Shown here: positions 23,424 through 41,234 of the stretch, one piece after another | Layout: every line of letters begins with the position of its first letter | How positions within the stretch are numbered: the first letter of the stretch is position 1 | DNA from: a virus | Direction: 5' to 3' (one strand) | Length of the DNA stretch: 64,000 bases | IMG/VR virus record: IMGVR_UViG_3300025789_000028 | Location: 28,060 to 92,059 of that record | Translations under genes and position numbers: made by a program | The notes under the pieces: generated by a model | The model's input: only the letters and a program-made list of their open reading frames with translations | Databases searched by the model: none | What the model was told of the DNA's origin: nothing

Positions 23424-23452
23424 ATTATATCGCCAAACCGATTTATTGTCAA
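23424..23452 (-). promoter_or_regulatory. consensus sigma70 promoter
   Basis: TTGACA-17-TATAAT. Confidence 0.85.
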
Positions 23453-23652
23453 CCTTTTTACTTATTCTTTTCCGATTCTTCAGCCATTTTGCTGATGCCG
23501 AGGATCATGACAATAATACCAATAAAACTGAACAGCAAAATTTGTGTAACGGTGAGACCTGCATTGTCACTGCCACTAGCAGTAACAAAAAGAATAAAAA
23601 ATCCAACTAGAAATAACGGCATAGTATACCTTTCAATCAATTTATAAGATAT

Positions 23653-23681
23653 ATTATATAGCCAAATTGATTTATTGTCAA
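23653..23681 (-). promoter_or_regulatory. consensus sigma70 promoter
   Basis: TTGACA-17-TATAAT. Confidence 0.85.
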
Positions 23682-23839
23682 GCCAAATCTATTGGTTTTT
23701 TGTGCTTGGGCTTGCGTTTGTAAGCAAGTTTGTTTTCAACAATTTTGGGCTTAAAGGGGCTGTTGTTGTCAAACAACATTTTATGTGCCCTATGTTTGGG
23801 GCGTTCTATCTTAAATGATAAAGTTTTCATAATACCCTT

Positions 23840-23868
23840 ATTGTATACCCAAATTTATTTTTTGTCAA
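23840..23868 (-). promoter_or_regulatory. sigma70-type promoter
   Basis: TTGACA-17-TACAAT. Confidence 0.75.
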
Positions 23869-26636: not shown

Positions 26637-26665
26637 ATTATATGCCCAAAACCATTTAAAGTCAA
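26637..26665 (-). promoter_or_regulatory. sigma70-type promoter
   Basis: TTGACT-17-TATAAT. Confidence 0.75.
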
Positions 26666-32179: not shown

Positions 32180-32253
32180 TGGAGCGGGATACCAGAATCG
32201 AACTGGTCACTAAACCTTGGCAAGGTTTCGTTTTACCGATAAACTAATCCCGC
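32180..32253 (-). tRNA. tRNA-Gly(GCC)
   Basis: cloverleaf, loop TTGCCAA, encoded CCA. Confidence 0.93.
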
Positions 32254-32262
32254 ATTATTTTC

Positions 32263-32652
32263 TCAATATAGAGGTAAGCCTTGCGCTTTTCTTCCTCTAC
32301 CTTTATTTGCACCGCCTAAAAATTCAGTTTGACTATGACAATTAGGACATATCAATCTTAAATTATCAGGACTATCATTTCCCGGATCACCGTTTACATG
32401 ATCTACATGAAGTACTAGCTTTTTGTTTTGCCATTCACTTACACCGCATACTTCACATTTATAACCTCTGTCTTCTGCTAAATATCTCCTAGCAGTTGAC
32501 CTTTCAATTCTTTTCAAATTACCGTTATACCATTCTTTTTTATGTAAAAAAGATTTATGCAATCCGTTACATACATTAGAACAATATTTTCCTGTTTTAT
32601 GATGAGGATTAAATTCAAAATCCTTATTACAATTTACACAATTTGCTTTCAT
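32263..32652 (-). CDS. HNH endonuclease (probable homing type)
   Basis: CEVC...HVDHVNG...NLRLICPNCH. Confidence 0.9.
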   Translation of the reverse strand: MKANCVNCNKDFEFNPHHKTGKYCSNVCNGLHKSFLHKKEWYNGNLKRIERSTARRYLAEDRGYKCEVCGVSEWQNKKLVLHVDHVNGDPGNDSPDNLRLICPNCHSQTEFLGGANKGRGRKAQGLPLY

Positions 32653-32708
32653 AGTAGAGTTCTCCTTTAGAGTATTTATACTCTACCGCTAAAAACGCAT
32701 AATTTTAT

Positions 32709-32891
32709 TTAGCTTCCTGTTAAGCTATATAAAATAATTGTGTTAAACGTTTCACCCTCAAGATTCAAATTAAGTGTGATTTGATCATTGTTAATTCCAT
32801 ACATATCAGGTTCAATAGCATATGACAATGTAAGATTGTCTTTTAAATACTGCTTAATTTGTGCTTGTAGTGTCGGGTCTAATGGATCCAT
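32709..32891 (-). CDS. hypothetical protein
   Basis: 60 aa; SD AGGA. Confidence 0.55.
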   Translation of the reverse strand: MDPLDPTLQAQIKQYLKDNLTLSYAIEPDMYGINNDQITLNLNLEGETFNTIILYSLTGS

Positions 32892-32908
32892 GATATTTCC
32901 TATGTAAT

Positions 32909-32982
32909 TGGATGCGGGTGACAGATTCGAACTGCCGATGCACCTGGCTTATGAGACCGGTGTGGTGACCACCCTACCCGCG
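32909..32982 (-). tRNA. tRNA-Met(CAT), initiator-like with reduced D-arm
   Basis: loop CTCATAA; C1/A72 mismatch; CCA. Confidence 0.8.
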
Positions 32983-32990
32983 TAATTTAT

Positions 32991-33173
32991 TTATTCATCT
33001 TTGACAGTATCTTTAACTGCCCGAACGTTTTCTTTTTCTTCTACGACCTCTTCCGGTAACGGTGGAGGTACGTATCTTGGTTTAGGTTCTTTCTTTCCAA
33101 AGATAGCATCCATTCTATCATCGAATTCAGACAGAGGAATGCTCATTGGTCTTGGCCTATCACCCTTACTCAT
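32991..33173 (-). CDS. hypothetical protein
   Basis: MSKGDRPRP..., coupled to ppiC stop. Confidence 0.65.
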   Translation of the reverse strand: MSKGDRPRPMSIPLSEFDDRMDAIFGKKEPKPRYVPPPLPEEVVEEKENVRAVKDTVKDE

Positions 33174-33442
33174 TATGCAGTCCTCTTGACCAAATGATAA
33201 CCAAACTGTGTTTGAACCGGTCCAACAACAACACCTACCGGGTTATTGAATGCTGCCTCTTCAAAAGGTTTTACCATTTGTCCTCGACCAAATAATCCTA
33301 AATCGCCACCTTGACGACCACTTGGGCACTTGCTATGTTGACTTGCTAATATAGCAAAATCAGCGCCGGACTTGATTTGCTCTTGTAAGTTAACTGCTTC
33401 TGCTAAAGAAGGTACTAAAATGTGACTTGCTCTTACCTGCAT
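33173..33442 (-). CDS. ppiC: parvulin peptidyl-prolyl isomerase
   Basis: ASHILV, HSKCPSG..GGDLG.F.RGQMV.PFE, TQFGYH. Confidence 0.95.
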   Translation of the reverse strand: MQVRASHILVPSLAEAVNLQEQIKSGADFAILASQHSKCPSGRQGGDLGLFGRGQMVKPFEEAAFNNPVGVVVGPVQTQFGYHLVKRTA

Positions 33443-33656
33443 AAATTTCCTTTATTCTGCTTCTACGTTAGTTGTATTGCCTGCACGTCCGCCGCCTGTT
33501 TGTTGCTCTGGTTGTGCTGTTGGGCTTTTTTTGTTTTGTGTGTATAAGAAAGCGCCGATGATAATTGCTACGATTAATGCTCCAATGATAAACATAATAA
33601 TCTCCTTTGTGTTGAGACTAATATTTATCATAATTCTATAGCATAAAAAATATGAA

Positions 33657-33732
33657 TGGTAGAAGTGGTGAGACTCGAACTCACGATAAACACCGTATGA
33701 AGGTGGCGCATTAGCCGCTATGCTACACTTCT
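33657..33732 (-). tRNA. tRNA(CAT), Met or Ile2
   Basis: cloverleaf, loop TTCATAC, CCA. Confidence 0.85.
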
Positions 33733-33738
33733 ATTGTT

Positions 33739-33813
33739 TGGTGCGACCTACTGGATTCGAACCAGTCCCGTAAGAATTATGAGTTCTCGGCACTACCTCT
33801 ATGCTAAAGTCGC
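33739..33813 (-). tRNA. tRNA(CAT), Met or Ile2
   Basis: cloverleaf, loop CTCATAA, CCA. Confidence 0.88.
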
Positions 33814-33874
33814 ATAATATTTGGTGGACTGTGTAGAAACCTATGAATTCATAGGTTTTTATGTATAATACAGA

Positions 33875-34066
33875 TTAAGCGTAAGATTCTTGGCCAGCAA
33901 TCTGCAAAACACAAAGTAATGTGGTAGCCTCATTAAAGATTTTAGATTGTAAACCTAAAGCCTGTTGTTCTGACGCATATTCATGCGCCTGCGCTAGTGT
34001 TTCAAATTCAGTATAATTTACTGAAAGAACATCATCGATCCAATTTTGTACTGATACTGTAAACAT
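33875..34066 (-). CDS. hypothetical protein
   Basis: paralogue of the adjacent ORF (EF....A..A.E......KI/V..E, ends YA). Confidence 0.65.
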   Translation of the reverse strand: MFTVSVQNWIDDVLSVNYTEFETLAQAHEYASEQQALGLQSKIFNEATTLLCVLQIAGQESYA

Positions 34067-34068
34067 GA

Positions 34069-34278
34069 TTATGCGTATGTGTTAATTTCTGCGTCAACAA
34101 AGAATTCATATAACAAGTGATAATACTCATCATATACCTTTGTACTGAACCCACGTCCGTGATGTTCTGTTGCGTGTGCAACTGCTTCATCTCTTGAATC
34201 AAATTCAAAAGCCTGTACATTCAATGCGCCATCGTCTCCGTAACTATGAATGTGTGAAATGTGTTTTCTACCGTGCAT
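34069..34278 (-). CDS. hypothetical protein
   Basis: SD GGAG; paralogue of 33875..34066. Confidence 0.65.
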   Translation of the reverse strand: MHGRKHISHIHSYGDDGALNVQAFEFDSRDEAVAHATEHHGRGFSTKVYDEYYHLLYEFFVDAEINTYA

Positions 34279-34289
34279 GTTATTCTCCG

Positions 34290-35339
34290 TTATTTAAATC
34301 TTTTGTACCATATCTCGGCACTCTTATTAGTATATTTAGTCAAACTAAACTGATTTAGTCTAACATTGATAGCAGGAAAGTTATATGCACGATTCAATGC
34401 TTTAGTAATATCTGCGCTATCAGTAGGGTCAGAACACCCTGTTGCTAACCACGGAATTTCTGTTGTGCCAACTAAAGGGATACCCTCACTAATCAAATCT
34501 GCACCAACAATATTAAATGTTTCACTGAAATTACATTGCATGCCTATGTCCATATCAGAACACAAATGCAAAAATTCTTCATGGGGTGCCCAATCATGTC
34601 TAATTAATCTATGCCCTGCACTATAAAGATGTGCAAAGAAGCCCTCTAGATTATGTAGTACAGGTTGACCTTTCATTTCAACACGACCTGCATTGATATG
34701 AAAATGCAATTTTTTACCTTGTTGAGTAGCAAAGTCAAGTGCGGCTACTGCTTGAACCATGTGATTCTTTAATGGTCTAACAGCACCAAAACATCCTACA
34801 TCAATATGGTCCTTAGTCTTATAAATTTTTCTTGGTGGACTAAATTTCTGTGGATAGTAATTGGGTAGATAAAAGACTTTCTTCAATGTTTCACTATCAC
34901 TCCAACGATTAACAGTTTGTAAGTAAGTTCTAATTTCACGCAACATTCTAGGTGCGTTTACACCAATACTAATGTTTTCAAAATGACTATAGTCACCGAT
35001 CCAATTCATTGCCATGCCTTCGCCAGCCATGAAAGGCATCTCACTATGAATGCGAACAATCCACTTTACATTAGGATGTAATTTACAAAGTGATGTGAAC
35101 TTACTGGGAACAACCCATAATGCTTCAATAATAACATAGTCTGGATTGTGTTTAGTAACTAGTCTGTCAATACAATTATTATCGATTGCAACTTCCATGA
35201 CTGATTTAATACCAACTTTATTCAGCATTCTATTAACAAATGATGCAGAATTGTATAGACCTGTAGTCAATCCAATTTTAGTATCTACTTTTTCACTATA
35301 ATTTTCTCTGCGTTTGAGAATGAATAAAATTTTCGACAT
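34290..35339 (-). CDS. GT-B fold (GT4-like) glycosyltransferase
   Basis: FGAVRPLKN and SETFNIVGAD..SEGIPLV motifs. Confidence 0.72.
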   Translation of the reverse strand: MSKILFILKRRENYSEKVDTKIGLTTGLYNSASFVNRMLNKVGIKSVMEVAIDNNCIDRLVTKHNPDYVIIEALWVVPSKFTSLCKLHPNVKWIVRIHSEMPFMAGEGMAMNWIGDYSHFENISIGVNAPRMLREIRTYLQTVNRWSDSETLKKVFYLPNYYPQKFSPPRKIYKTKDHIDVGCFGAVRPLKNHMVQAVAALDFATQQGKKLHFHINAGRVEMKGQPVLHNLEGFFAHLYSAGHRLIRHDWAPHEEFLHLCSDMDIGMQCNFSETFNIVGADLISEGIPLVGTTEIPWLATGCSDPTDSADITKALNRAYNFPAINVRLNQFSLTKYTNKSAEIWYKRFK

Positions 35340-35413
35340 GTATGGTGTATTGCTTTCGTTAGTCAAATATTTATCGGAATAAACTACGACTGTATATTAA
35401 GTTAATGTGACAA

Positions 35414-35487
35414 TGGTACCCAGTAGAGGTAACGCTCCTCTGTCGCACGATTATCAGTCGTGTGCTCTACTTTTGAGCTAACCGGGT
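35414..35487 (-). tRNA. tRNA-Ile(GAT), non-canonical T-loop
   Basis: loop CTGATAA; T-loop AGCGTTA; CCA. Confidence 0.85.
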
Positions 35488-35493
35488 AAATTT

Positions 35494-35571
35494 TGGAGGT
35501 GCGAGTCAGATTTGAACTGACGGTTTTACGGATTTGCAATCCGTTGCATTGGACCACTCTGCCACCGCACC
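35494..35571 (-). tRNA. tRNA-Cys(GCA)
   Basis: loop TTGCAAA; U73; CCA. Confidence 0.93.
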
Positions 35572-35574
35572 GTG

Positions 35575-35700
35575 TTAATGATTTAGTTTTGCTATTGCGC
35601 CCAAAACACAATGAATGTCTAAATGCAGTCTATGAGCAATTTCAGTTGCGTCTAGATGCCTATCTAATAACTCTTTAACTTGCATTACGATGTATGACAT
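35575..35700 (-). CDS. 41 aa helix-turn-helix-like protein (not in ORF track)
   Basis: MSYIVMQVKELLDRHLDATEIAHRLHLDIHCVLGAIAKLNH; SD GGGAG. Confidence 0.6.
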   Translation of the reverse strand: MSYIVMQVKELLDRHLDATEIAHRLHLDIHCVLGAIAKLNH

Positions 35701-35766
35701 AGAATCTCCCGTCTATACATATATAACGCCTCAGAAGTCATTCCTGTTGACATGTTTTGGGTATCT

Positions 35767-35856
35767 TGGTGGAGAGCCAGGGAGTCGAACCCTGTGACCG
35801 TATTACTACGGTCTACGGATTAGCAATCCGCTGCATTACCATCCTGCCCGCTCTCC
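35767..35856 (-). tRNA. tRNA-Ser(GCT)
   Basis: loop TTGCTAA; long variable arm; CCA. Confidence 0.92.
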
Positions 35857-35863
35857 ATTATCT

Positions 35864-35951
35864 TGGAGGAAGATGTGAGATTCGAACTCACGGGACCTTT
35901 CGGACCTCTAGTTTTCAAGACTAGTGCAATCGACCACTCTGCCAATCTTCC
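35864..35951 (-). tRNA. tRNA-Ser(TGA)
   Basis: loop CTTGAAA; long variable arm; CCA. Confidence 0.93.
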
Positions 35952-35989
35952 GTATACTATATTTAACTATAAAAAATTACATTGTTGAA

Positions 35990-36203
35990 TTTGTAAGTTG
36001 TGCCACCATCGTTATTGACACCATTCACCCGTGTAATTAAGCCGGCCGGGACTCGGTACGTTACTTGGGCTCCATCCAGATGATACTCATTGTATGCCGA
36101 TCCCACTCAAGCGATCAGCCGGGTAACGACCCCGCAACCTTCTACTAACTTAGTCCTTCGAAGAAACCTCATTAGCGTGACTTTACTTGCTAACACTTAC
36201 AAA
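35990..36203 (-). ncRNA. putative structured ncRNA (~214 nt)
   Basis: closing stem TTTGTAAGT/ACTTACAAA; GC-rich internal hairpins; no credible ORF. Confidence 0.6.
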
Positions 36204-36206
36204 ACT

Positions 36207-36299
36207 TGGCGTATGAAGCTGGCCTTGCACCCTGCTATCACCATACCTCACTTTTCAGGAAGGTTTTACTGGCACCATCACTCTTCTGGCTTTCATACA
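36207..36299 (-). ncRNA. tRNA-like element ending in CCA
   Basis: TGTATGAA/TTCATACG stem followed by CCA; degenerate T-arm; no clear anticodon arm. Confidence 0.5.
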
Positions 36300-36305
36300 T
36301 AATAT

Positions 36306-36390
36306 TGGTGGAGATGGTTGGACTTGAACCAACAATGCCAGGGGCGGCTGATTTACAGTCAGCTGGGGTTACCAATTTTCCTACATCTCC
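36306..36390 (-). tRNA. tRNA-Tyr(GTA)
   Basis: loop CTGTAAA; variable arm; CCA. Confidence 0.93.
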
Positions 36391-36454
36391 ATTAATTTGA
36401 ATGGTTATTACTAACTCAAGCAAGGGCGTGTGACCGTTGTACTTGAATTAGAAA

Positions 36455-36518
36455 ACCATATAGAAACACACTATGCCACGCTCTGAACCTGGACTCTTAG
36501 TAATGTGTTTTTATATGG
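36455..36518 (-). repeat. long-stem cassette A
   Basis: CCATATAAAAACACATT...AGTGTGTTTCTATATGG. Confidence 0.85.
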
Positions 36519-36636
36519 CGTATCAACAATGCCGTATGCATCCACCATTGCGTCTGTAATTAGTATCCGAGATTCCGAGCCTCGATATCTATCCCGTAGG
36601 TAGCAGTCCCGTGTATGACTTACTAAAAACTGATAT

Positions 36637-36734
36637 ACCATATAGAAACACACTATGGGATTCGAACCCTTCGTTCAGCATCAGAACTTCAAACCTACCC
36701 ACCTGCTAGTAGGAGTTAATGTGTTTTTATATGG
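36637..36734 (-). repeat. long-stem cassette B with T-loop cargo
   Basis: same stem; cargo includes GGGTTCGAATCCC. Confidence 0.85.
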
Positions 36735-36814
36735 AATCCATTGTGTGTAGGGCATCGAAACCTACATTAAGCCCCATAACGGGCCTTTATTACCACTTAT
36801 AAGAACACGGATTC
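36732..36814 (-). ncRNA. degenerate tRNA-like RNA
   Basis: GAATCCG/TGGATTC stem; D-like loop AGTGGTA; T-like GTAGG-TTTCGATGC-CCTAC; ends CCA. Confidence 0.5.
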
Positions 36815-36862
36815 TTGGGGTCATGACTCCCCAATATGGACAGGTTAATTACTCCTGTTTTT

Positions 36863-36934
36863 ACCATATAGAAACACACTACTCTCTTTATAGTCGAAGC
36901 CCCGGACGCTTCTCGTAATGTGTTTTTATATGGT
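36863..36934 (-). repeat. long-stem cassette C
   Basis: same stem; begins at the CCA of tRNA 36931..37005. Confidence 0.85.
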
Positions 36935-37005
36935 GGTTATAGAAGGTAACGATCCTTCCTATGAGGCTTATGAGACCCCTGCATATCCGTCTATGCTATA
37001 TCACC
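36931..37005 (-). tRNA. tRNA(CAT), non-canonical T-loop
   Basis: loop CTCATAA; T-loop ATCGTTA; CCA. Confidence 0.78.
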
Positions 37006-37009
37006 AAAT

Positions 37010-37087
37010 TGGCTCCCCATCTAGGTGACGCTCCTAGCTAATCTCGGATTAACAGTCCGCCGCCTACACCTAGTTTGCTTAAGGGGA
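37010..37087 (-). tRNA. tRNA-Asn(GTT), non-canonical T-loop
   Basis: loop CTGTTAA; T-loop AGCGTCA; G73; CCA. Confidence 0.82.
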
Positions 37088-37095
37088 ATAAAACT

Positions 37096-37174
37096 TGTTC
37101 GGAGTAGTAGGATTCGAACCTACGACCTCCTTGCTCTTAAAGCAGGTGCACTACCCAGGCTGTGCTACACTCCG
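37096..37174 (-). tRNA. tRNA with Pro-type body and TAA anticodon, no encoded CCA
   Basis: C1-G72, A73; loop TTTAAGA versus TTTGGGA in tRNA-Pro 40266..40343. Confidence 0.75.
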
Positions 37175-37179
37175 AAAAA

Positions 37180-37245
37180 TGGAGCAGTCATTACGATTCC
37201 CACGTAAATGTTAGGTGGACCCCAACACGGTTACTATCCGACTGC
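37180..37245 (-). ncRNA. miniature tRNA-like RNA ending in CCA
   Basis: GCAGTC/GACTGC plus TCCA; arms TGTTGG-GGTCCAC-CTAACA and TTACG-TGGGAAT-CGTAA. Confidence 0.55.
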
Positions 37246-37252
37246 AAAAAGA

Positions 37253-37335
37253 TGGTGCCCCAAGCGAGACTCGAACTCGCACGCCTAAGCACTGGCTTCT
37301 AAGACCAGCGTGTCTACCAATTCCACCATCGGGGC
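37253..37335 (-). tRNA. tRNA-Leu(TAG)
   Basis: loop CTTAGAA; variable arm; CCA. Confidence 0.94.
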
Positions 37336-37342
37336 ATAACTT

Positions 37343-37416
37343 TGGAGCGGGGTAAGAGAATCGAACTCTCAGCATTAGCTTGGAAGGCTAAGGTATTACC
37401 ACTATACGAACCCCGC
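37343..37416 (-). tRNA. tRNA-Gly(TCC)
   Basis: loop CTTCCAA; CCA. Confidence 0.94.
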
Positions 37417-37464
37417 AAAATTGATTATGTATTTATATAGGAGGCTATGCCTCCAAAATTCTTA

Positions 37465-37547
37465 TACCATATAGAAACACACTTGATATAGTAAATTACT
37501 TTATCACGGATGAACCCGAATTTAGTCAAATGTGTTTCTATATGGTA
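37465..37547 (-). repeat. long-stem cassette D
   Basis: TACCATATAGAAACACATTTG...CAAGTGTGTTTCTATATGGTA; begins at the CCA of tRNA-Lys. Confidence 0.85.
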
Positions 37548-37619
37548 GAAGCACAGGGACTTGAACCCTGAACCTACCGGTTAAAAGCCGGTTGCTCTAG
37601 CCAGTTGAGCTATACTTCC
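37543..37619 (-). tRNA. tRNA-Lys(TTT)
   Basis: loop CTTTTAA; CCA. Confidence 0.93.
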
Positions 37620-37625
37620 ATAATA

Positions 37626-37700
37626 TGGTCCCTCCGGTCAGAGTCGAACTGACGCTTGTCGGATTAAGAGTCCGCTATGCTACCATAACATCTCGAAGGG
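37626..37700 (-). tRNA. tRNA-Lys(CTT)
   Basis: loop CTCTTAA; CCA. Confidence 0.85.
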
Positions 37701-37766
37701 ATAGTACGTATTAATTTGTCTTTTACGTGCCATCCCTAGACCATACATGGAAGTCTAAAGATGACA

Positions 37767-37790
37767 CTATCGTTTACCTGAACGTTTCAT
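37767..37790 (-). CDS. 7-codon mini-ORF MKRSGKR followed by a hairpin
   Basis: SD AAGGA; ATG AAA CGT TCA GGT AAA CGA TAG. Confidence 0.45.
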   Translation of the reverse strand: MKRSGKR

Positions 37791-37812
37791 GTCATTTCCT
37801 TTATTAAAAACT

Positions 37813-37889
37813 TGGCGCACCGTAGGGGACTCGAACCCCTGGCCTCAACAGTGACAGTGTTGCGATCTAACCAACTGATCTAACGGTGC
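37813..37889 (-). tRNA. tRNA-Asp(GTC)
   Basis: loop CTGTCAC; G73; CCA. Confidence 0.94.
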
Positions 37890-37897
37890 AAATTCTT

Positions 37898-37972
37898 TGG
37901 TACTGGGTACGGGAATCGAACCCGTCTTACAAACGTGAAAGGCTTGTGTCCTAACCGATAGACGAACCCAGC
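37898..37972 (-). tRNA. tRNA-Glu(TTC)
   Basis: loop CTTTCAC; CCA. Confidence 0.93.
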
Positions 37973-37976
37973 AATT

Positions 37977-38208
37977 AATCACTATATGTAAGTATACTAA
38001 AGGAACCATTGTACATCTATCTCTACCACCAAGTAACGTCTACTTGGGGCCTGTACGGTCATTACATCCTATATTATCCGTCATGCTCGGTCACATATGT
38101 ACTCATGCACTTCATGAACTCTGACTATTGGGCGTAGCCGTCACTACTGTCCCCGCACAAAGCTCCTAACGGTATAGGTAACCTTTATAATACTTACATA
38201 TAGTGATT
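37977..38208 (-). ncRNA. putative ~232 nt ncRNA closed by a 19 bp perfect stem
   Basis: AATCACTATATGTAAGTAT / ATACTTACATATAGTGATT. Confidence 0.65.
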
Positions 38209-38237: not shown

Positions 38238-38305
38238 TTTTTAAAGAACGTTGTTGATTTCTCAACTCATGCTATGATTGTATCACAGCAACGAATTATT
38301 GTCAA
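38238..38305 (-). promoter_or_regulatory. sigma70 promoter + boxB-like hairpin + boxA-like sequence
   Basis: TTGACA-17-TACAAT; GTTGA-GAAA-TCAAC; CGTTCTTTAAAAA. Confidence 0.8.
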
Positions 38306-38310
38306 CCTTT

Positions 38311-38513
38311 TTGTAATGTAGTTTAGGCTGATACCTGATAAATGATAGTAGGATTCGAACCTACACGCTGTTTCCAACAGGGACCGGATATGGCCCCTAT
38401 GTCTACCAATTTCATCATATCAACTCCCTTCTATTCGCTCGGCAAAGCTACTGTCAGGGGTCAAGTTTCAGACTGCTTTCAGATTGCCGTCATCAGCCTA
38501 AACTACACTACAA
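38311..38513 (-). ncRNA. long-stem ncRNA enclosing a tRNA-Leu-like domain
   Basis: 22 bp stem; ATGAAATTGGTAGACAT D-arm; variable arm; GTAGGTTCGAATCCTAC T-arm; no CCA. Confidence 0.7.
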
Positions 38514-38514
38514 A

Positions 38515-38596
38515 ATTTTAAAGAACCTTGTTGAGTAGTACGATCACTTTTCTCAACTCATGAATGTATTATAGCACCGAATCGATTTATTGTCAA
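38515..38596 (-). promoter_or_regulatory. consensus sigma70 promoter + hairpin + boxA-like sequence
   Basis: TTGACA-17-TATAAT; GTTGAG...CTCAAC; GGTTCTTTAAAAT. Confidence 0.8.
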
Positions 38597-38614
38597 ATTC
38601 TTGTTTGTACTACT

Positions 38615-39235
38615 TTATGCTACAAATTCCTCACACTCCTTTAGGGTAGTGATAATTTTCAAATTAGGAATCTGTCTTTTAATCACATCTAATTTTTCTT
38701 TTTGGACCAATACCGCATGCGGATTCTTGGGGTCAAGATACAAGTCCTGAATGGGTAAATAGAAGTCAGGAAAATAGTTATGAGTCTTACCTGATCTGTC
38801 AACCCATTTAATAGGTTCAGTAGGCCTTATCCAAACAACACCTAGACTGTCTAATCTCCTCGCAAGACTTTCTTCCCACGAAGAATCTAATAACACTTGA
38901 GTTCCGTCAACTTGAGTATAATACCTAGTTGATTTGACTAGTCTTCGGTGTCCCGAAGCTAGTGCTTTGTCTCTTATTTTTTCCAAAGATTCAGGAGTAT
39001 GTTTATAGTCTTTTCGGGTACTAGCTTTCCCCTTCATACTAGAAACGATTATTCTTCCTTCATCTTTTGCTTTTACAAACTGATTTCTAGGATTTTTAAT
39101 ACATTCCCTAGCTGAAACTAATTTTTCAGCATATTCAATTCGCTTAGGATTCTCATTACACCATCTACTATGGTTTGCTTTATTAGCAGGTGACAATCCC
39201 TCAAATTCTTTTTTACAATGCTTACATATAAACAT
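38615..39235 (-). CDS. putative homing endonuclease (Zn finger, NUMOD3-like, PD-(D/E)XK)
   Basis: CKHC..H..WC; KHTPESLEKI; SSWE...YFPDFYLP..DLYLDPK; start moved off the tRNA to ATG 39235. Confidence 0.8.
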   Translation of the reverse strand: MFICKHCKKEFEGLSPANKANHSRWCNENPKRIEYAEKLVSARECIKNPRNQFVKAKDEGRIIVSSMKGKASTRKDYKHTPESLEKIRDKALASGHRRLVKSTRYYTQVDGTQVLLDSSWEESLARRLDSLGVVWIRPTEPIKWVDRSGKTHNYFPDFYLPIQDLYLDPKNPHAVLVQKEKLDVIKRQIPNLKIITTLKECEEFVA

Positions 39236-39248
39236 ATATACCCTTAAA

Positions 39249-39324
39249 TGGCGCGACCGGAGAGATTCGAACTCCCGACAGACCGGGTAGAAGCCGGTTA
39301 CTCTATCCACTGAGTTACGGTCGC
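39249..39324 (-). tRNA. tRNA-Arg(TCT)
   Basis: loop CTTCTAC; CCA. Confidence 0.94.
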
Positions 39325-39387
39325 ATATATCTATTTATATATAAATGAAGTTTTTTGTACTATCCGTTGAACGAACGCCAGAATAAA

Positions 39388-39474
39388 TGGTGCCCGGAGC
39401 CGGAATCGAACCGGCACGCTCTTTCAAGCGAGAGATTTTAAGTCTCTTGTGTCTACCTATTTCACCATCCGGGC
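39388..39474 (-). tRNA. tRNA-Leu(TAA)
   Basis: loop CTTAAAA; variable arm; CCA. Confidence 0.95.
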
Positions 39475-39477
39475 TAA

Positions 39478-39546
39478 TTTTTTAAAGAACGTTGTTGATT
39501 TCTCAACTCATGCTATGATTGTAGCACCGACTTGATTTATTGTCAA
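39478..39546 (-). promoter_or_regulatory. sigma70 promoter + boxB-like hairpin + boxA-like sequence
   Basis: TTGACA-17-TACAAT; GTTGA-GAAA-TCAAC; CGTTCTTTAAAAA; near-identical to 38238..38305. Confidence 0.8.
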
Positions 39547-40673: not shown

Positions 40674-41234
40674 TTAAATCTGTATAATTCTACTATGCTT
40701 TGGAACACCTGATAACAAATAATCCATTTGATCTGCAAGTATAGTGCGGTTCTGTAGGATCATGTTTTCATAGTGATTAGGTGCATAAGGTACATATAGC
40801 AATTCAAGTCGTGCTTCTTTAAGAGTTAGACAACCTTTCTTTTGATTACATACTTTACATGCAGTAACCACGTTTGTCCATTCATCCAAACCACCTTTGA
40901 ATCTAGGCATGATATGATCACGACTTAGATGTGAGAAGTTGGGGAAGTGTCCCCCACAATATGCACAAACATGTCGGTCTCTAGCAAACAATGTTCTGTT
41001 TGTCAATGCCACTTTACTGTGCTTAGTAAGGTTAAATCCTGAACCTCTAACTGCTATAATGCTAGTAGTTTCTAAATAACTATCAACACCATTCTTTTGT
41101 GTTCCACCGTGATATCTTGCAACTGTTTCACCTAAACTCCAGGCTACTTGATTCTTTGCATGATAACAGATGGCTTCATCATAGTTAACCCATGCTCGGG
41201 GTATACCTGATATGTCTAGGGCTAGTACTGCCAT
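40674..41234 (-). CDS. HNH endonuclease (McrA-like)
   Basis: LFARD..CAYCG...DHIMPR..GG..W.NVVTAC..CN..K. Confidence 0.9.
   Translation of the reverse strand: MAVLALDISGIPRAWVNYDEAICYHAKNQVAWSLGETVARYHGGTQKNGVDSYLETTSIIAVRGSGFNLTKHSKVALTNRTLFARDRHVCAYCGGHFPNFSHLSRDHIMPRFKGGLDEWTNVVTACKVCNQKKGCLTLKEARLELLYVPYAPNHYENMILQNRTILADQMDYLLSGVPKHSRIIQI

What the first reader, a model, noticed from the sequence alone, without database searches (positions are those of the whole stretch)
38238..39546. rRNA-operon-like promoter-boxB-boxA antitermination cassettes driving phage tRNAs and ncRNAs
Seen three times (38238-38305, 38515-38596, 39478-39546): TTGACA-17-TA(C/T)AAT, then a hairpin (GTTGA-GAAA-TCAAC in two copies), then GTTCTTTAAAA. 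Established: proteobacterial rrn leaders have a boxB hairpin followed by boxA (TGCTCTTTAACA), which loads NusB/NusE for Rho-resistant transcription of untranslated RNA. Inference: the phage borrows the host rrn antitermination complex for its long non-coding array. The early protein-gene promoters at 22-26 kb lack this cassette.
Basis: partly seen in the sequence, partly recalled or inferred. Interest (0 to 1): 0.78.

Follow-up and report, generated by a model that had tools for sequence, protein, structure and literature searches.

The report
rRNA-type boxA leaders before phage tRNAs
Three strong promoters inside this uncultured giant phage's tRNA gene array are each followed by a small hairpin and an exact copy of "boxA", the signal that bacteria put in front of ribosomal RNA genes to load Nus factors on RNA polymerase, so the phage probably borrows that host machinery to transcribe its tRNAs and other non-coding RNAs.

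Summary
All features are on the minus strand: TTGACA-17-TA(C/T)AAT, a 5' hairpin, then GTTCTTTAAAA, three times within 1.3 kb. These are the only matches in the 92-kb contig.

The 11-mer fits the published functional boxA consensus GYTCTTTAANA. It is also letter for letter the Legionella pneumophila Lens CRISPR-leader boxA, which raised transcription of a non-coding array about 10-fold.

The same promoter-hairpin-boxA pattern hits at least 119 IMG/VR contigs, against 9 for a reversed-box control. About 85% of the hits lie just upstream of same-strand tRNAs; none of the controls do.

In bacterial genomes the same pattern is mostly the 16S rRNA leader, with the same hairpin-to-boxA spacing. The phage version differs: it has a phage-type promoter (17-bp spacer, AT-rich discriminator), no boxC, and mostly GNRA hairpin loops.

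Four complete ~350-kb relatives lack NusB, S10 and NusG genes, so host factors would be needed.

Two cultured phages (Xanthomonas X1, Stenotrophomonas CM1) carry the cassette.

No paper in the searchable library reports this. Earlier AI notes of this scan describe the same theme in at least 78 other genomes.

The parts
38277..38305 (-). Cassette A promoter: TTGACA, 17 bp, TACAAT, with TGn extended -10. The likely start is the A at 38270.
   Evidence: 11 of 12 hexamer matches. Start site inferred from spacing.
38253..38266 (-). Cassette A 5' hairpin GTTGA-GAAA-TCAAC, in the boxB position.
38239..38249 (-). Cassette A boxA, GTTCTTTAAAA. It is unpaired in the MFE and centroid folds.
37977..38208 (-). 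First RNA made from cassette A: a 232-nt structured RNA closed by a 27-nt, 93% complementary terminal helix (arms 38208-38182 and 38003-37977). tRNA-Glu follows 4 nt later.
   Evidence: z = -4.8; I2
32180..37972 (-). Array downstream of cassette A: 17 tRNA genes plus structured RNAs and a few ORFs over about 5.8 kb. It contains no other promoter with 11-12 of 12 matches and no convincing intrinsic terminator.
38568..38596 (-). Cassette B promoter: TTGACA, 17 bp, TATAAT, with TGn.
   Evidence: 12 of 12
38530..38557 (-). Cassette B 5' hairpin: GTTGAG, a 16-nt loop with an inner 4-bp stem, then CTCAAC.
38516..38526 (-). Cassette B boxA, GTTCTTTAAAA.
38309..38515 (-). RNA made from cassette B. A long terminal helix (arms 38515-38473 and 38351-38309) starts directly after boxA. 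It encloses a weak tRNA-like element (38425-38339) and ends 3 nt before cassette A.
   Evidence: z = -5.6; I1
39518..39546 (-). Cassette C promoter: TTGACA, 17 bp, TACAAT, with TGn.
39494..39507 (-). Cassette C 5' hairpin GTTGA-GAAA-TCAAC.
39480..39490 (-). Cassette C boxA, GTTCTTTAAAA. tRNA-Leu(taa) starts 5 nt downstream (39474-39388), followed by tRNA-Arg(tct).

Best explanation
Each cassette is a strong phage early promoter read by host sigma-70 RNA polymerase. Its first roughly 32 transcribed bases form an rrn-type Nus-loading leader: about four free bases, a short stable hairpin, a 3-nt spacer, then single-stranded boxA (GUUCUUUAAAA).

Inferred mechanism: host NusB-S10 binds boxA on the nascent RNA. 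Together with NusA, NusG and probably SuhB it converts the polymerase into the rRNA-type elongation complex. That complex resists Rho, elongates fast, and helps long-range helices form. It then carries transcription through the untranslated tRNA and structured-RNA array. In cassettes A and B, the RNA just after boxA is closed by a long terminal helix, as the 16S leader-trailer helix follows boxA in rrn operons.

Shown: the sequence match, the architecture, the conservation, and the association with tRNA arrays and with bacterial rRNA leaders.

Inferred: Nus binding and its effect on transcription.
For: 1. Consensus and experimental precedent. The motif fits GYTCTTTAANA exactly, the functional consensus of Baniulyte et al. 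2017 (PMC5725501). It keeps G2, C5 and U6, which Stagno et al. 2011 name as key NusB contacts (PMC3177189). It is identical to the L. pneumophila Lens CRISPR-leader boxA, which raised pre-crRNA about 10-fold along a non-coding array (PMC7862264).

2. Specificity in this genome. There are 3 matches against 0.53 expected, all behind promoters in the tRNA array. The dozen sister promoters before protein genes lack the motif.

3. Specificity in relatives. In four complete ~350-kb relatives, all 7 promoter-linked matches lie in tRNA arrays on the tRNA strand. The other matches have no promoter, are mostly inside ORFs, and occur at the level of the reversed control.

4. IMG/VR scans.
- The pattern promoter, N15-45, GTTCTTTAAAA hits at least 119 contigs, against 9 for the reversed box.
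- 90 of 110 distinct hits have a same-strand tRNA within 1.5 kb downstream, against 0 of 8 controls.
- The GCTCTTTAANA variant occurs behind the same hairpins.

5. The hairpin in 141 distinct tRNA-array cassettes.
- It is present in 117 and ends 2-3 nt before boxA in 75.
- There are 85 distinct hairpin sequences.
- 96% of stem positions pair, against 62% with shuffled partners.

6. Bacterial genomes.
- The same pattern finds at least 120 loci.
- 39 have the 16S start 75-270 nt downstream, and 40 more sit at contig ends.
- 57 of 62 distinct rrn leaders carry GTGTGGG-type boxC.
- Hairpin position and spacing are as in the phage.
- One complete genome has 5 boxA-boxC sites, and 152 of 301 sampled Gammaproteobacteria have a match.

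7. Folding. boxA is unpaired in the MFE and centroid folds.

8. Host factors. No NusB, S10 or NusG homologue is found in the phage or in four complete relatives, so host factors would be used.
Against: - There is no experimental datum for this phage, and the host is unknown. The match to the host's own rrn boxA cannot be checked.
- boxC is absent: 1 of 141 phage cassettes against 57 of 62 rrn leaders.
- Model phages with tRNA arrays (T4, T5, KVP40) and the giant coliphage relatives Turkey5 and Munch have no such cassette. It is therefore not a general need of phage tRNA arrays.
- Two other strong promoters of this same array (42486 and 40672) lack boxA.
- tRNAs are highly structured and may be poor Rho substrates. 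The benefit could be speed or folding rather than antitermination.
- In many cassettes the first tRNA starts 13-19 nt after boxA. RNase P would then soon cut the leader off the nascent chain. Whether the complex persists after that cut is unknown.
Confidence: 0.72

Rival explanations
1. This is a phage-specific antitermination system of the lambda N-nut kind. A phage protein binds the conserved GNRA-type hairpin and, together with host Nus factors on boxA, modifies the polymerase. The hairpin is then the specific part and boxA the helper.
For: - GNRA tetraloops are strongly preferred in phage cassettes (70 of 117) but not in bacterial rrn leaders (6 of 56).
- Loops are kept while the stems change.
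- The same promoter-plus-hairpin module occurs in many phage contigs without boxA, so the hairpin has a role of its own.
- Lambda and P22 boxB loops fold GNRA-like and bind N (own knowledge).
Against: - No candidate N-like protein was identified.
- The order is hairpin then boxA, the reverse of lambda nut.
- Two cassettes in the closest complete relative have boxA 7 nt after the -10 with no hairpin.
- GNRA loops may simply stabilise short AT-rich stems.
Confidence: 0.12
2. The leader is an RNA stability or processing element. The 5' hairpin protects the transcript end, and the AU-rich single strand is a nuclease (for example RNase E) entry site. The likeness to boxA has no bearing on Nus factors.
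For: - The hairpin starts about 4 nt from the predicted 5' end, the position of known 5' stabilisers (own knowledge).
- The hairpin occurs without boxA in other phage RNAs.
- The leader must in any case be removed from the tRNA precursors.
Against: - A generic AU-rich site would not keep 11 letters fixed across more than 140 distinct cassettes.
- The changes that do occur fall mainly at the two positions the boxA consensus leaves free.
- The identical 11-mer with the same spacing heads bacterial rRNA and rpsJ leaders and acts as boxA in Legionella.
Confidence: 0.1
3. It is a duplicated promoter module with no function of its own, or a DNA-level site such as a T4 MotA-type box for a downstream middle promoter.
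For: - Copies A and C are identical from the -10 to the 11-mer, which suggests recent duplication or gene conversion.
- The T4 MotA box (TGCTTTA-like, own knowledge) loosely resembles the motif.
Against: - Conservation extends over hundreds of divergent contigs with covarying stems.
- No -10-like element lies at a constant distance downstream of the three copies (direct reading).
- The bacterial counterpart sits in rRNA leaders.
Confidence: 0.04

Closest known systems
Bacterial rrn operon leader (promoter P2-type, boxB hairpin, boxA, boxC) and the rrn antitermination complex (NusB-S10, NusA, NusG, SuhB, S4)
   Same: - The order is the same: promoter, hairpin, boxA.
- The hairpin starts 6-11 nt after the -10 and ends 2-3 nt before boxA in both.
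- The 11-mer is identical to that of many gamma- and betaproteobacterial 16S leaders.
- In cassettes A and B, boxA is followed by an RNA closed by a long terminal helix, as boxA precedes the 16S leader-trailer helix.
   Different: - boxC is missing (1 of 141 against 57 of 62).
- The spacer is 17 bp (114 of 141) rather than 16 bp (54 of 62).
- The -10 is TATAAT or TACAAT rather than mostly TAGAAT.
- The discriminator is AT-rich (31% GC against 67%), so stringent control is not expected.
- An extended -10 is common and GNRA loops are preferred.
- The cargo is tRNAs and unknown structured RNAs, not rRNA.
boxA in CRISPR-array leaders (Salmonella and others, Stringer et al. 2020, cited from memory; L. 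pneumophila Lens boxA tested by Ellis et al. 2021, PMC7862264)
   Same: - The 11-mer GTTCTTTAAAA is identical.
- The logic is the same: a boxA in the leader of a long, untranslated, repetitive RNA array. It raised RNA levels along the whole array about 10-fold.
   Different: - The host here is a phage genome rather than a bacterial one, and the cargo differs.
- The phage element sits at +22 to +32 of the transcript with a hairpin in front. The CRISPR experiments used boxA 58 or 90 bp before the first repeat, with no defined hairpin.
Lambda nutL/nutR (boxA-boxB) with N protein
   Same: It is a phage-borne RNA signal that combines boxA with a GNRA-like hairpin close to an early promoter and uses host Nus factors.
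   Different: - The order is reversed (hairpin before boxA).
- The boxA is of full rrn type rather than the weaker lambda form.
- No N homologue is known here.
- The signal is placed before RNA genes, not protein operons.
boxA in 5' UTRs of suhB, rpsJ and nusB (Nus autoregulation, Baniulyte et al. 2017)
   Same: The consensus GYTCTTTAANA is the same. The bacterial scan also recovered promoter-hairpin-boxA-SD-ATGCAGAA leaders, apparently of rpsJ, in Cellvibrionaceae-type genomes.
   Different: There boxA lies next to a ribosome-binding site and represses a protein gene. Here no translated gene follows.

Membership tests
boxA RNA element (NusB-S10 binding site) | Sequence fits the functional consensus GYTCTTTAANA, with G2, C5 and U6 intact. 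| tested here: met
   All three copies read GTTCTTTAAAA. Consensus from PMC5725501, key positions from PMC3177189.
boxA RNA element (NusB-S10 binding site) | Lies on the transcribed strand, downstream of a promoter, so that it is made as RNA. | tested here: met
   The motif lies 28-42 nt after near-consensus -10 hexamers (27 nt intervene in A and C, 41 in B) on the tRNA strand. Transcription itself was not measured.
boxA RNA element (NusB-S10 binding site) | Single-stranded in the nascent RNA. | tested here: met
   Unpaired in the MFE and centroid structures of both leader-plus-cargo folds. This is a prediction only.
boxA RNA element (NusB-S10 binding site) | Binds the NusB-S10 heterodimer. 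| not testable with these tools
   Needs EMSA, ITC or ChIP.
boxA RNA element (NusB-S10 binding site) | Raises distal transcription or suppresses Rho termination in cis. | not testable with these tools
   Shown only for the identical 11-mer in L. pneumophila.
rrn-type leader (boxB-boxA-boxC) | Hairpin immediately upstream of boxA. | tested here: met
   The hairpin ends 3 nt before boxA in A, B and C. The geometry is the same in 56 of 62 bacterial rrn leaders.
rrn-type leader (boxB-boxA-boxC) | boxC (GTGTGGG-type) 10-30 nt after boxA. | tested here: not met
   Absent in A, B and C. Found in 1 of 141 phage cassettes against 57 of 62 rrn leaders.
rrn-type leader (boxB-boxA-boxC) | rrn-type promoter with 16-bp spacer and GC-rich discriminator. 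| tested here: not met
   The phage has a 17-bp spacer and an AT-rich discriminator, and its promoter belongs to the phage's own early family.
rrn-type leader (boxB-boxA-boxC) | boxA followed by the 5' arm of a long leader-trailer helix that encloses the cargo RNA. | tested here: met
   Met for B, where the helix starts directly after boxA, and for A, where it starts 30 nt after. Not met for C, where a tRNA follows directly. Across IMG/VR, 22 of 58 cassettes with a gap of 100-700 nt to the next tRNA have such a helix, against 6 when shuffled.
Lambda-type nut site | Order boxA then boxB, with a phage N-family protein. | tested here: not met
   The order is hairpin then boxA. No systematic search for N-like proteins was made.

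The most novel reading that the evidence does not exclude
Many phages build their RNA-gene arrays as miniature rRNA operons. Besides boxA-driven processivity, the Nus-modified polymerase would hold the leader next to the RNA exit, so that the long terminal helices of the stem-closed phage RNAs form co-transcriptionally and are cut out as pre-rRNA is. The GNRA hairpin, which is phage-specific and also occurs without boxA, would be the docking site of a still unknown phage factor that makes this complex phage-controlled.
Probability: 0.2. Interest if true: 0.8.

Novelty: new member of a known kind. Interest (0 to 1): 0.62.

Why it matters
The boxA/Nus system is known from rRNA operons, lambdoid phages, a few Nus genes and CRISPR arrays. 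Phage tRNA arrays would be a further large class of targets, and I found no report of this in the searchable literature.

It would explain how phages transcribe kilobases of untranslated RNA on a host polymerase that Rho normally polices. It would tie phage tRNA supply to host Nus factors. The boxA variant might also serve as a clue to the host of uncultured phages.

The cassette is compact, about 70 bp from promoter to boxA. It could serve as a part for expressing long non-coding arrays, as the Legionella CRISPRi work already did with the same 11-mer.

Two cultured phages that carry the cassette make the idea directly testable.

Tried and rejected
1. DNA similarity to isolate phages. Megablast of 4 kb and blastn of one cassette found only tRNA-level or chance hits. 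The phage has no close cultured relative in that collection.

2. Host identification. Subtilase, MetK and NrdA tblastn gave only distant phage hits. The best was NrdA at 60% to Xanthomonas phages. The host remains unknown.

3. Rfam. No family covers the cassettes or the downstream RNAs, at gathering or E-value thresholds.

4. Model phages. T4, T5, KVP40, Turkey5 and Munch show the consensus only at background level and never in their tRNA arrays.

5. Phage-encoded Nus factors. NusB, S10 and NusG are not found in the contig or in four complete relatives.

6. kb-scale leader-trailer helix. I looked for one from the post-boxA bases to the far end of the array, a lead from earlier notes. Only local helices (121-178 nt between arms) were found in this window.

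7. MotA-box or middle-promoter reading. No -10-like element lies at a fixed distance after the three copies.

8. Mini-ORF reading. All three transcripts would begin AUG-AGU-UGA. In relatives the ATG is often ATA or absent, while CAT, a usual start-site context, is kept. I take it as start-site context, not a peptide.

9. Intrinsic terminators. The scan gave only tRNA arms, at the shuffle level.

10. Stringer et al. 2020 could not be opened. It is cited from memory and through.
Full report
**Where and what.** The window is bases 28060-92059 of a single 92,059-bp virus contig. The contig has 37.7% G+C. CheckV rates it 26% complete, and the near-complete relatives are about 350 kb. A block of 32 tRNA genes lies on the minus strand between 32.2 and 41.8 kb. 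The three cassettes lie inside this block, also on the minus strand. Each has TTGACA, 17 bp, then TACAAT or TATAAT with a TGn extended -10. Ten bases follow, ending in CATGA, then a hairpin. The hairpin is GTTGA-GAAA-TCAAC in A and C, and GTTGAG, 16 nt, CTCAAC in B. Three more bases and GTTCTTTAAAA complete the cassette. The usual start site, 7 nt after the -10, is the A of CATGA. On that reading the hairpin starts at about +5 and the 11-mer spans about +22 to +32 (inference from spacing).

**Is it more than chance?**
- The 11-mer occurs three times in the contig, and only here.
- The consensus GYTCTTTAANA gives 3 matches in the window against 0.53 expected, and no shuffle out of 100 reaches 3.
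- The three copies are alike only from the -35 hexamer to the last A of the 11-mer. The flanks are unrelated.
- The promoter part belongs to a family used all over this phage (TTGACAATAAATC...TATAAT, about a dozen more copies). Those copies run directly into a Shine-Dalgarno site and a start codon, without hairpin or 11-mer.

**What the 11-mer is.**
- Baniulyte et al. derived GYTCTTTAANA as the functional boxA consensus for Gammaproteobacteria (PMC5725501). The phage motif fits it exactly.
- Stagno et al. show that NusB-S10 reads 8 nt of boxA and that G2, C5 and U6 are critical (PMC3177189). All three are kept. The only difference from the E. coli rrn core is the pyrimidine at position 3, which the consensus leaves free.
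- Ellis et al. used exactly 5'-GTTCTTTAAAA-3', the boxA of the L. pneumophila Lens CRISPR leader. It raised precursor RNA about 10-fold along a synthetic non-coding array (PMC7862264). So this very sequence has boxA activity in at least one proteobacterium.

**Bacterial counterpart.** I scanned one genome per species with the pattern TTGACA, N16-18, TANAAT, N15-45, GTTCTTTAAAA.
- In 39 loci the 16S rRNA start lies 75-270 nt downstream. In 40 more, the contig ends within 400 nt, as is usual at rRNA operons.
- Among 62 distinct rRNA leaders, 56 have a hairpin between the -10 and the 11-mer, and in 41 of these it ends 2-3 nt before the 11-mer. In 57 of the 62, a GTGTGGG-type boxC follows.
- The named organisms are mostly Gammaproteobacteria: Porticoccaceae, Pseudoalteromonas, Oceanospirillales-type genera, Coxiellaceae, Francisellaceae, Legionellales and a Vibrio. 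There are also Burkholderiales (Zoogloea, Sutterellaceae).
- One complete genome has five boxA-boxC sites and no match to the reversed control.
- 152 of 301 sampled Gammaproteobacteria have a boxA-boxC match, with GTT and GCT forms both common. That tally includes two genomes flagged unpublished, G046 and G124. No claim here rests on them.
- The scan also recovered leaders in which boxA is followed by a ribosome-binding site and ATGCAGAA, the start of S10 as I read it. This fits the published Nus autoregulation.

**Phage survey.** A control with the 11-mer reversed gave 9.
- Of 110 distinct real hits, 90 have a same-strand tRNA within 1.5 kb downstream and 43 within 30 nt. Only one locus has an opposite-strand tRNA. 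Of the 8 controls, none is near a tRNA.
About half of its hits are in tRNA arrays, often behind the same hairpins.
- Pooling gives 141 distinct tRNA-array cassettes. 117 have a hairpin of -2 kcal/mol or better, with 85 different sequences. In 92 cassettes it ends 1-4 nt before boxA, against 17 on average when shuffled.
- 70 of the 117 loops are GNRA tetraloops.
- In the tetraloop hairpins, 96% of the five pairs nearest the loop are Watson-Crick or G-U, against 62% when 3' arms are dealt to other sequences. Several pair types occur at each position. That subset was chosen by folding, so the figure is somewhat favourable.
- Of 144 distinct cassettes counted, 68 have their first tRNA within 30 nt of boxA. 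It is most often tRNA-Glu (37 of those 68), typically 13-19 nt after boxA.

**Genome-wide specificity in relatives.** Four complete contigs of 345-367 kb carry 3, 1, 1 and 2 promoter-linked matches. All of these are inside tRNA arrays on the tRNA strand. Their other consensus matches have no promoter, mostly lie in ORFs, and are as frequent as the reversed control.

**How the phage version differs from a host rrn leader**.

| Feature | Host rrn leaders | Phage tRNA-array cassettes |
|---|---|---|
| Spacer | 16 bp (54 of 62) | 17 bp (114 of 141) |
| -10 hexamer | mostly TAGAAT | TATAAT or TACAAT |
| First 8 nt after the -10 | 67% GC | 31% GC |
| Extended -10 | 2 of 62 | 56 of 141 |
| boxC | 57 of 62 | 1 of 141 |
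| GNRA loops | 6 of 56 | 70 of 117 |

The cassette is therefore the phage's own strong promoter fused to an rrn-type hairpin-boxA leader. It is not a captured host promoter, and it should escape stringent control (inference).

**The hairpin is a module of its own.** I ran a scan anchored only on the promoter and the hairpin GTTRAGAAATYAAC. It gave 100 distinct cassettes.
- 39 have an exact boxA 2-5 nt after the hairpin, and 8 more have one mismatch, with GYTCATTAAAA recurring. Chance expectation is 0 and 0.1 per 100.
- 22 lead into a different conserved RNA without boxA. 31 lead into other sequences.
- Conversely, two cassettes in the closest complete relative have boxA 7 nt after the -10 and no hairpin.

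So boxA is the core of the signal. The hairpin may do something separate, such as end protection or docking of a factor.

**What is transcribed.**
- Cassette C runs into tRNA-Leu(taa) after 5 nt, then tRNA-Arg.
- Cassette B makes an RNA whose terminal helix starts directly after boxA and ends 3 nt before cassette A. It encloses a weak tRNA-like element.
- Cassette A makes a 232-nt RNA closed by a 27-nt, 93% complementary helix. After that come tRNA-Glu and 16 more tRNAs with other structured RNAs over 5.8 kb. That stretch has no other near-consensus promoter and no credible intrinsic terminator.
- boxA stays unpaired in both folds, whose z-scores are -4.8 and -5.6.
- A boxA followed by a leader-trailer helix is the layout of pre-16S RNA (PMC10250234 abstract). 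Among 58 IMG/VR cassettes with a gap of 100-700 nt to the next tRNA, 22 show such a helix, against 6 when shuffled.

**Who supplies the factors.** No NusB, S10 or NusG homologue is found in this contig or in four complete relatives. The consensus sigma-70 promoters imply host polymerase. Host Nus factors are thus the only candidates (inference).

**Limits.**
- Nothing here shows binding or antitermination.
- The host is unknown. NrdA is closest to phages of Xanthomonas, Ralstonia and Stenotrophomonas, at 52-60% identity.
- T4, T5, KVP40, Turkey5 and Munch lack the cassette.
- Two strong promoters of this same array lack it.
- Recent work holds that rRNA is intrinsically Rho-resistant and that the Nus complex mainly aids folding. 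The benefit to the phage may therefore be processivity, speed, folding, or a mix.

**Cultured examples.**
- Xanthomonas phage X1 has a GC-rich hairpin followed by GTTCTTTAAAA 17 nt before tRNA-Trp, the first tRNA of a run of at least 11.
- Stenotrophomonas phage CM1 has TTGACA, 16 bp, TAGAAT, a hairpin and GTTCTTTAACA within its tRNA region.

**Prior knowledge.** Full-text searches that combined boxA with phage tRNA terms found no report. The one apparent hit was the BOXA1R PCR primer. Earlier AI notes of this scan describe boxA-type leaders on phage tRNA or RNA operons in at least 78 other genomes. I treat these as leads, not as evidence.

**Verdict.** This is a real, conserved element. It is best read as a new class of boxA/Nus target: phage tRNA and non-coding RNA arrays.

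Noticed in passing
NC_005859.1 (phage T5) 4978-4988 and 116509-116519, minus strand; loci L262, L267: In the T5 terminal repeat (first-step-transfer DNA), a hairpin GGCGG...CCGCC is followed after 2 nt by GCTCTTTAAAA. This is a hairpin-boxA arrangement outside any tRNA array.
   Followed up: no
L270, L271, L274, L309, L312, L322, L350, L353, L365, L387 (bacterial genome contigs): In Cellvibrionaceae-type genomes a consensus promoter, GC-rich hairpin and GTTCTTTAAAA are followed by GGAG and ATGCAGAA, apparently the rpsJ (S10) start. This fits published Nus autoregulation.
   Followed up: partly
L445, L446, L448, L452, L463, L464, L472, L473 and about 14 more IMG/VR loci: The same promoter plus GTTGAGAAATCAAC hairpin leads, without boxA, into a conserved RNA beginning TGCGGTG...GGTAGGTTCAGG. 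No Rfam family matches it. One contig has a wcaG RNA about 380 nt downstream, which suggests marine cyanophages.
   Followed up: partly
L321 (contig binned as Bifidobacterium MAG) and L330 (binned as Crocinitomicaceae MAG): These short contigs carry typical phage cassettes. In L321, hairpin and boxA are followed 17 nt later by tRNA-Leu. They are probably phage DNA binned with bacteria.
   Followed up: no
window 38268-38270, 38559-38561, 39509-39511 (minus strand): All three predicted transcripts would begin AUG-AGU-UGA, a two-codon frame at the very 5' end. The ATG is not kept in relatives (often ATA), so it is probably just start-site context.
   Followed up: partly
window 38339-38425 (minus strand): An 87-nt tRNA-like element sits inside the stem-closed RNA made from cassette B. 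ARAGORN calls it tRNA-Asp(atc), and the Rfam tRNA score is 29.8 bits, just over the threshold.
   Followed up: no
L039, L053, L059, L097, L109 (IMG/VR): A consensus promoter, hairpin GCCATCACAGAATGGC and GTTCTTTAAAA are followed by a ribosome-binding site, with no tRNAs nearby. Some phages put the same leader before protein genes.
   Followed up: no
G001:C1:304682-304692 and 306600-306610 (closest complete relative): Two tRNA-array promoters have boxA starting 7 nt after the -10, with no hairpin. boxA would then be at the very 5' end of the RNA.
   Followed up: partly
window 23424-23868, 26637-26665 and contig bases 7966-8547, 24281-24619: This is a phage-wide early promoter family, TTGACAATAAATC..TTTGGGTATATAAT, with conserved short leaders (acttgtattgattgattaaagga) before protein genes.
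   Followed up: partly
window 38615-39235 and 40674-41234 (minus strand): Endonuclease-like ORFs are inserted between tRNA groups: an HNH gene, and a weak match to phage endonuclease I. They are probably homing elements inside the array.
   Followed up: no
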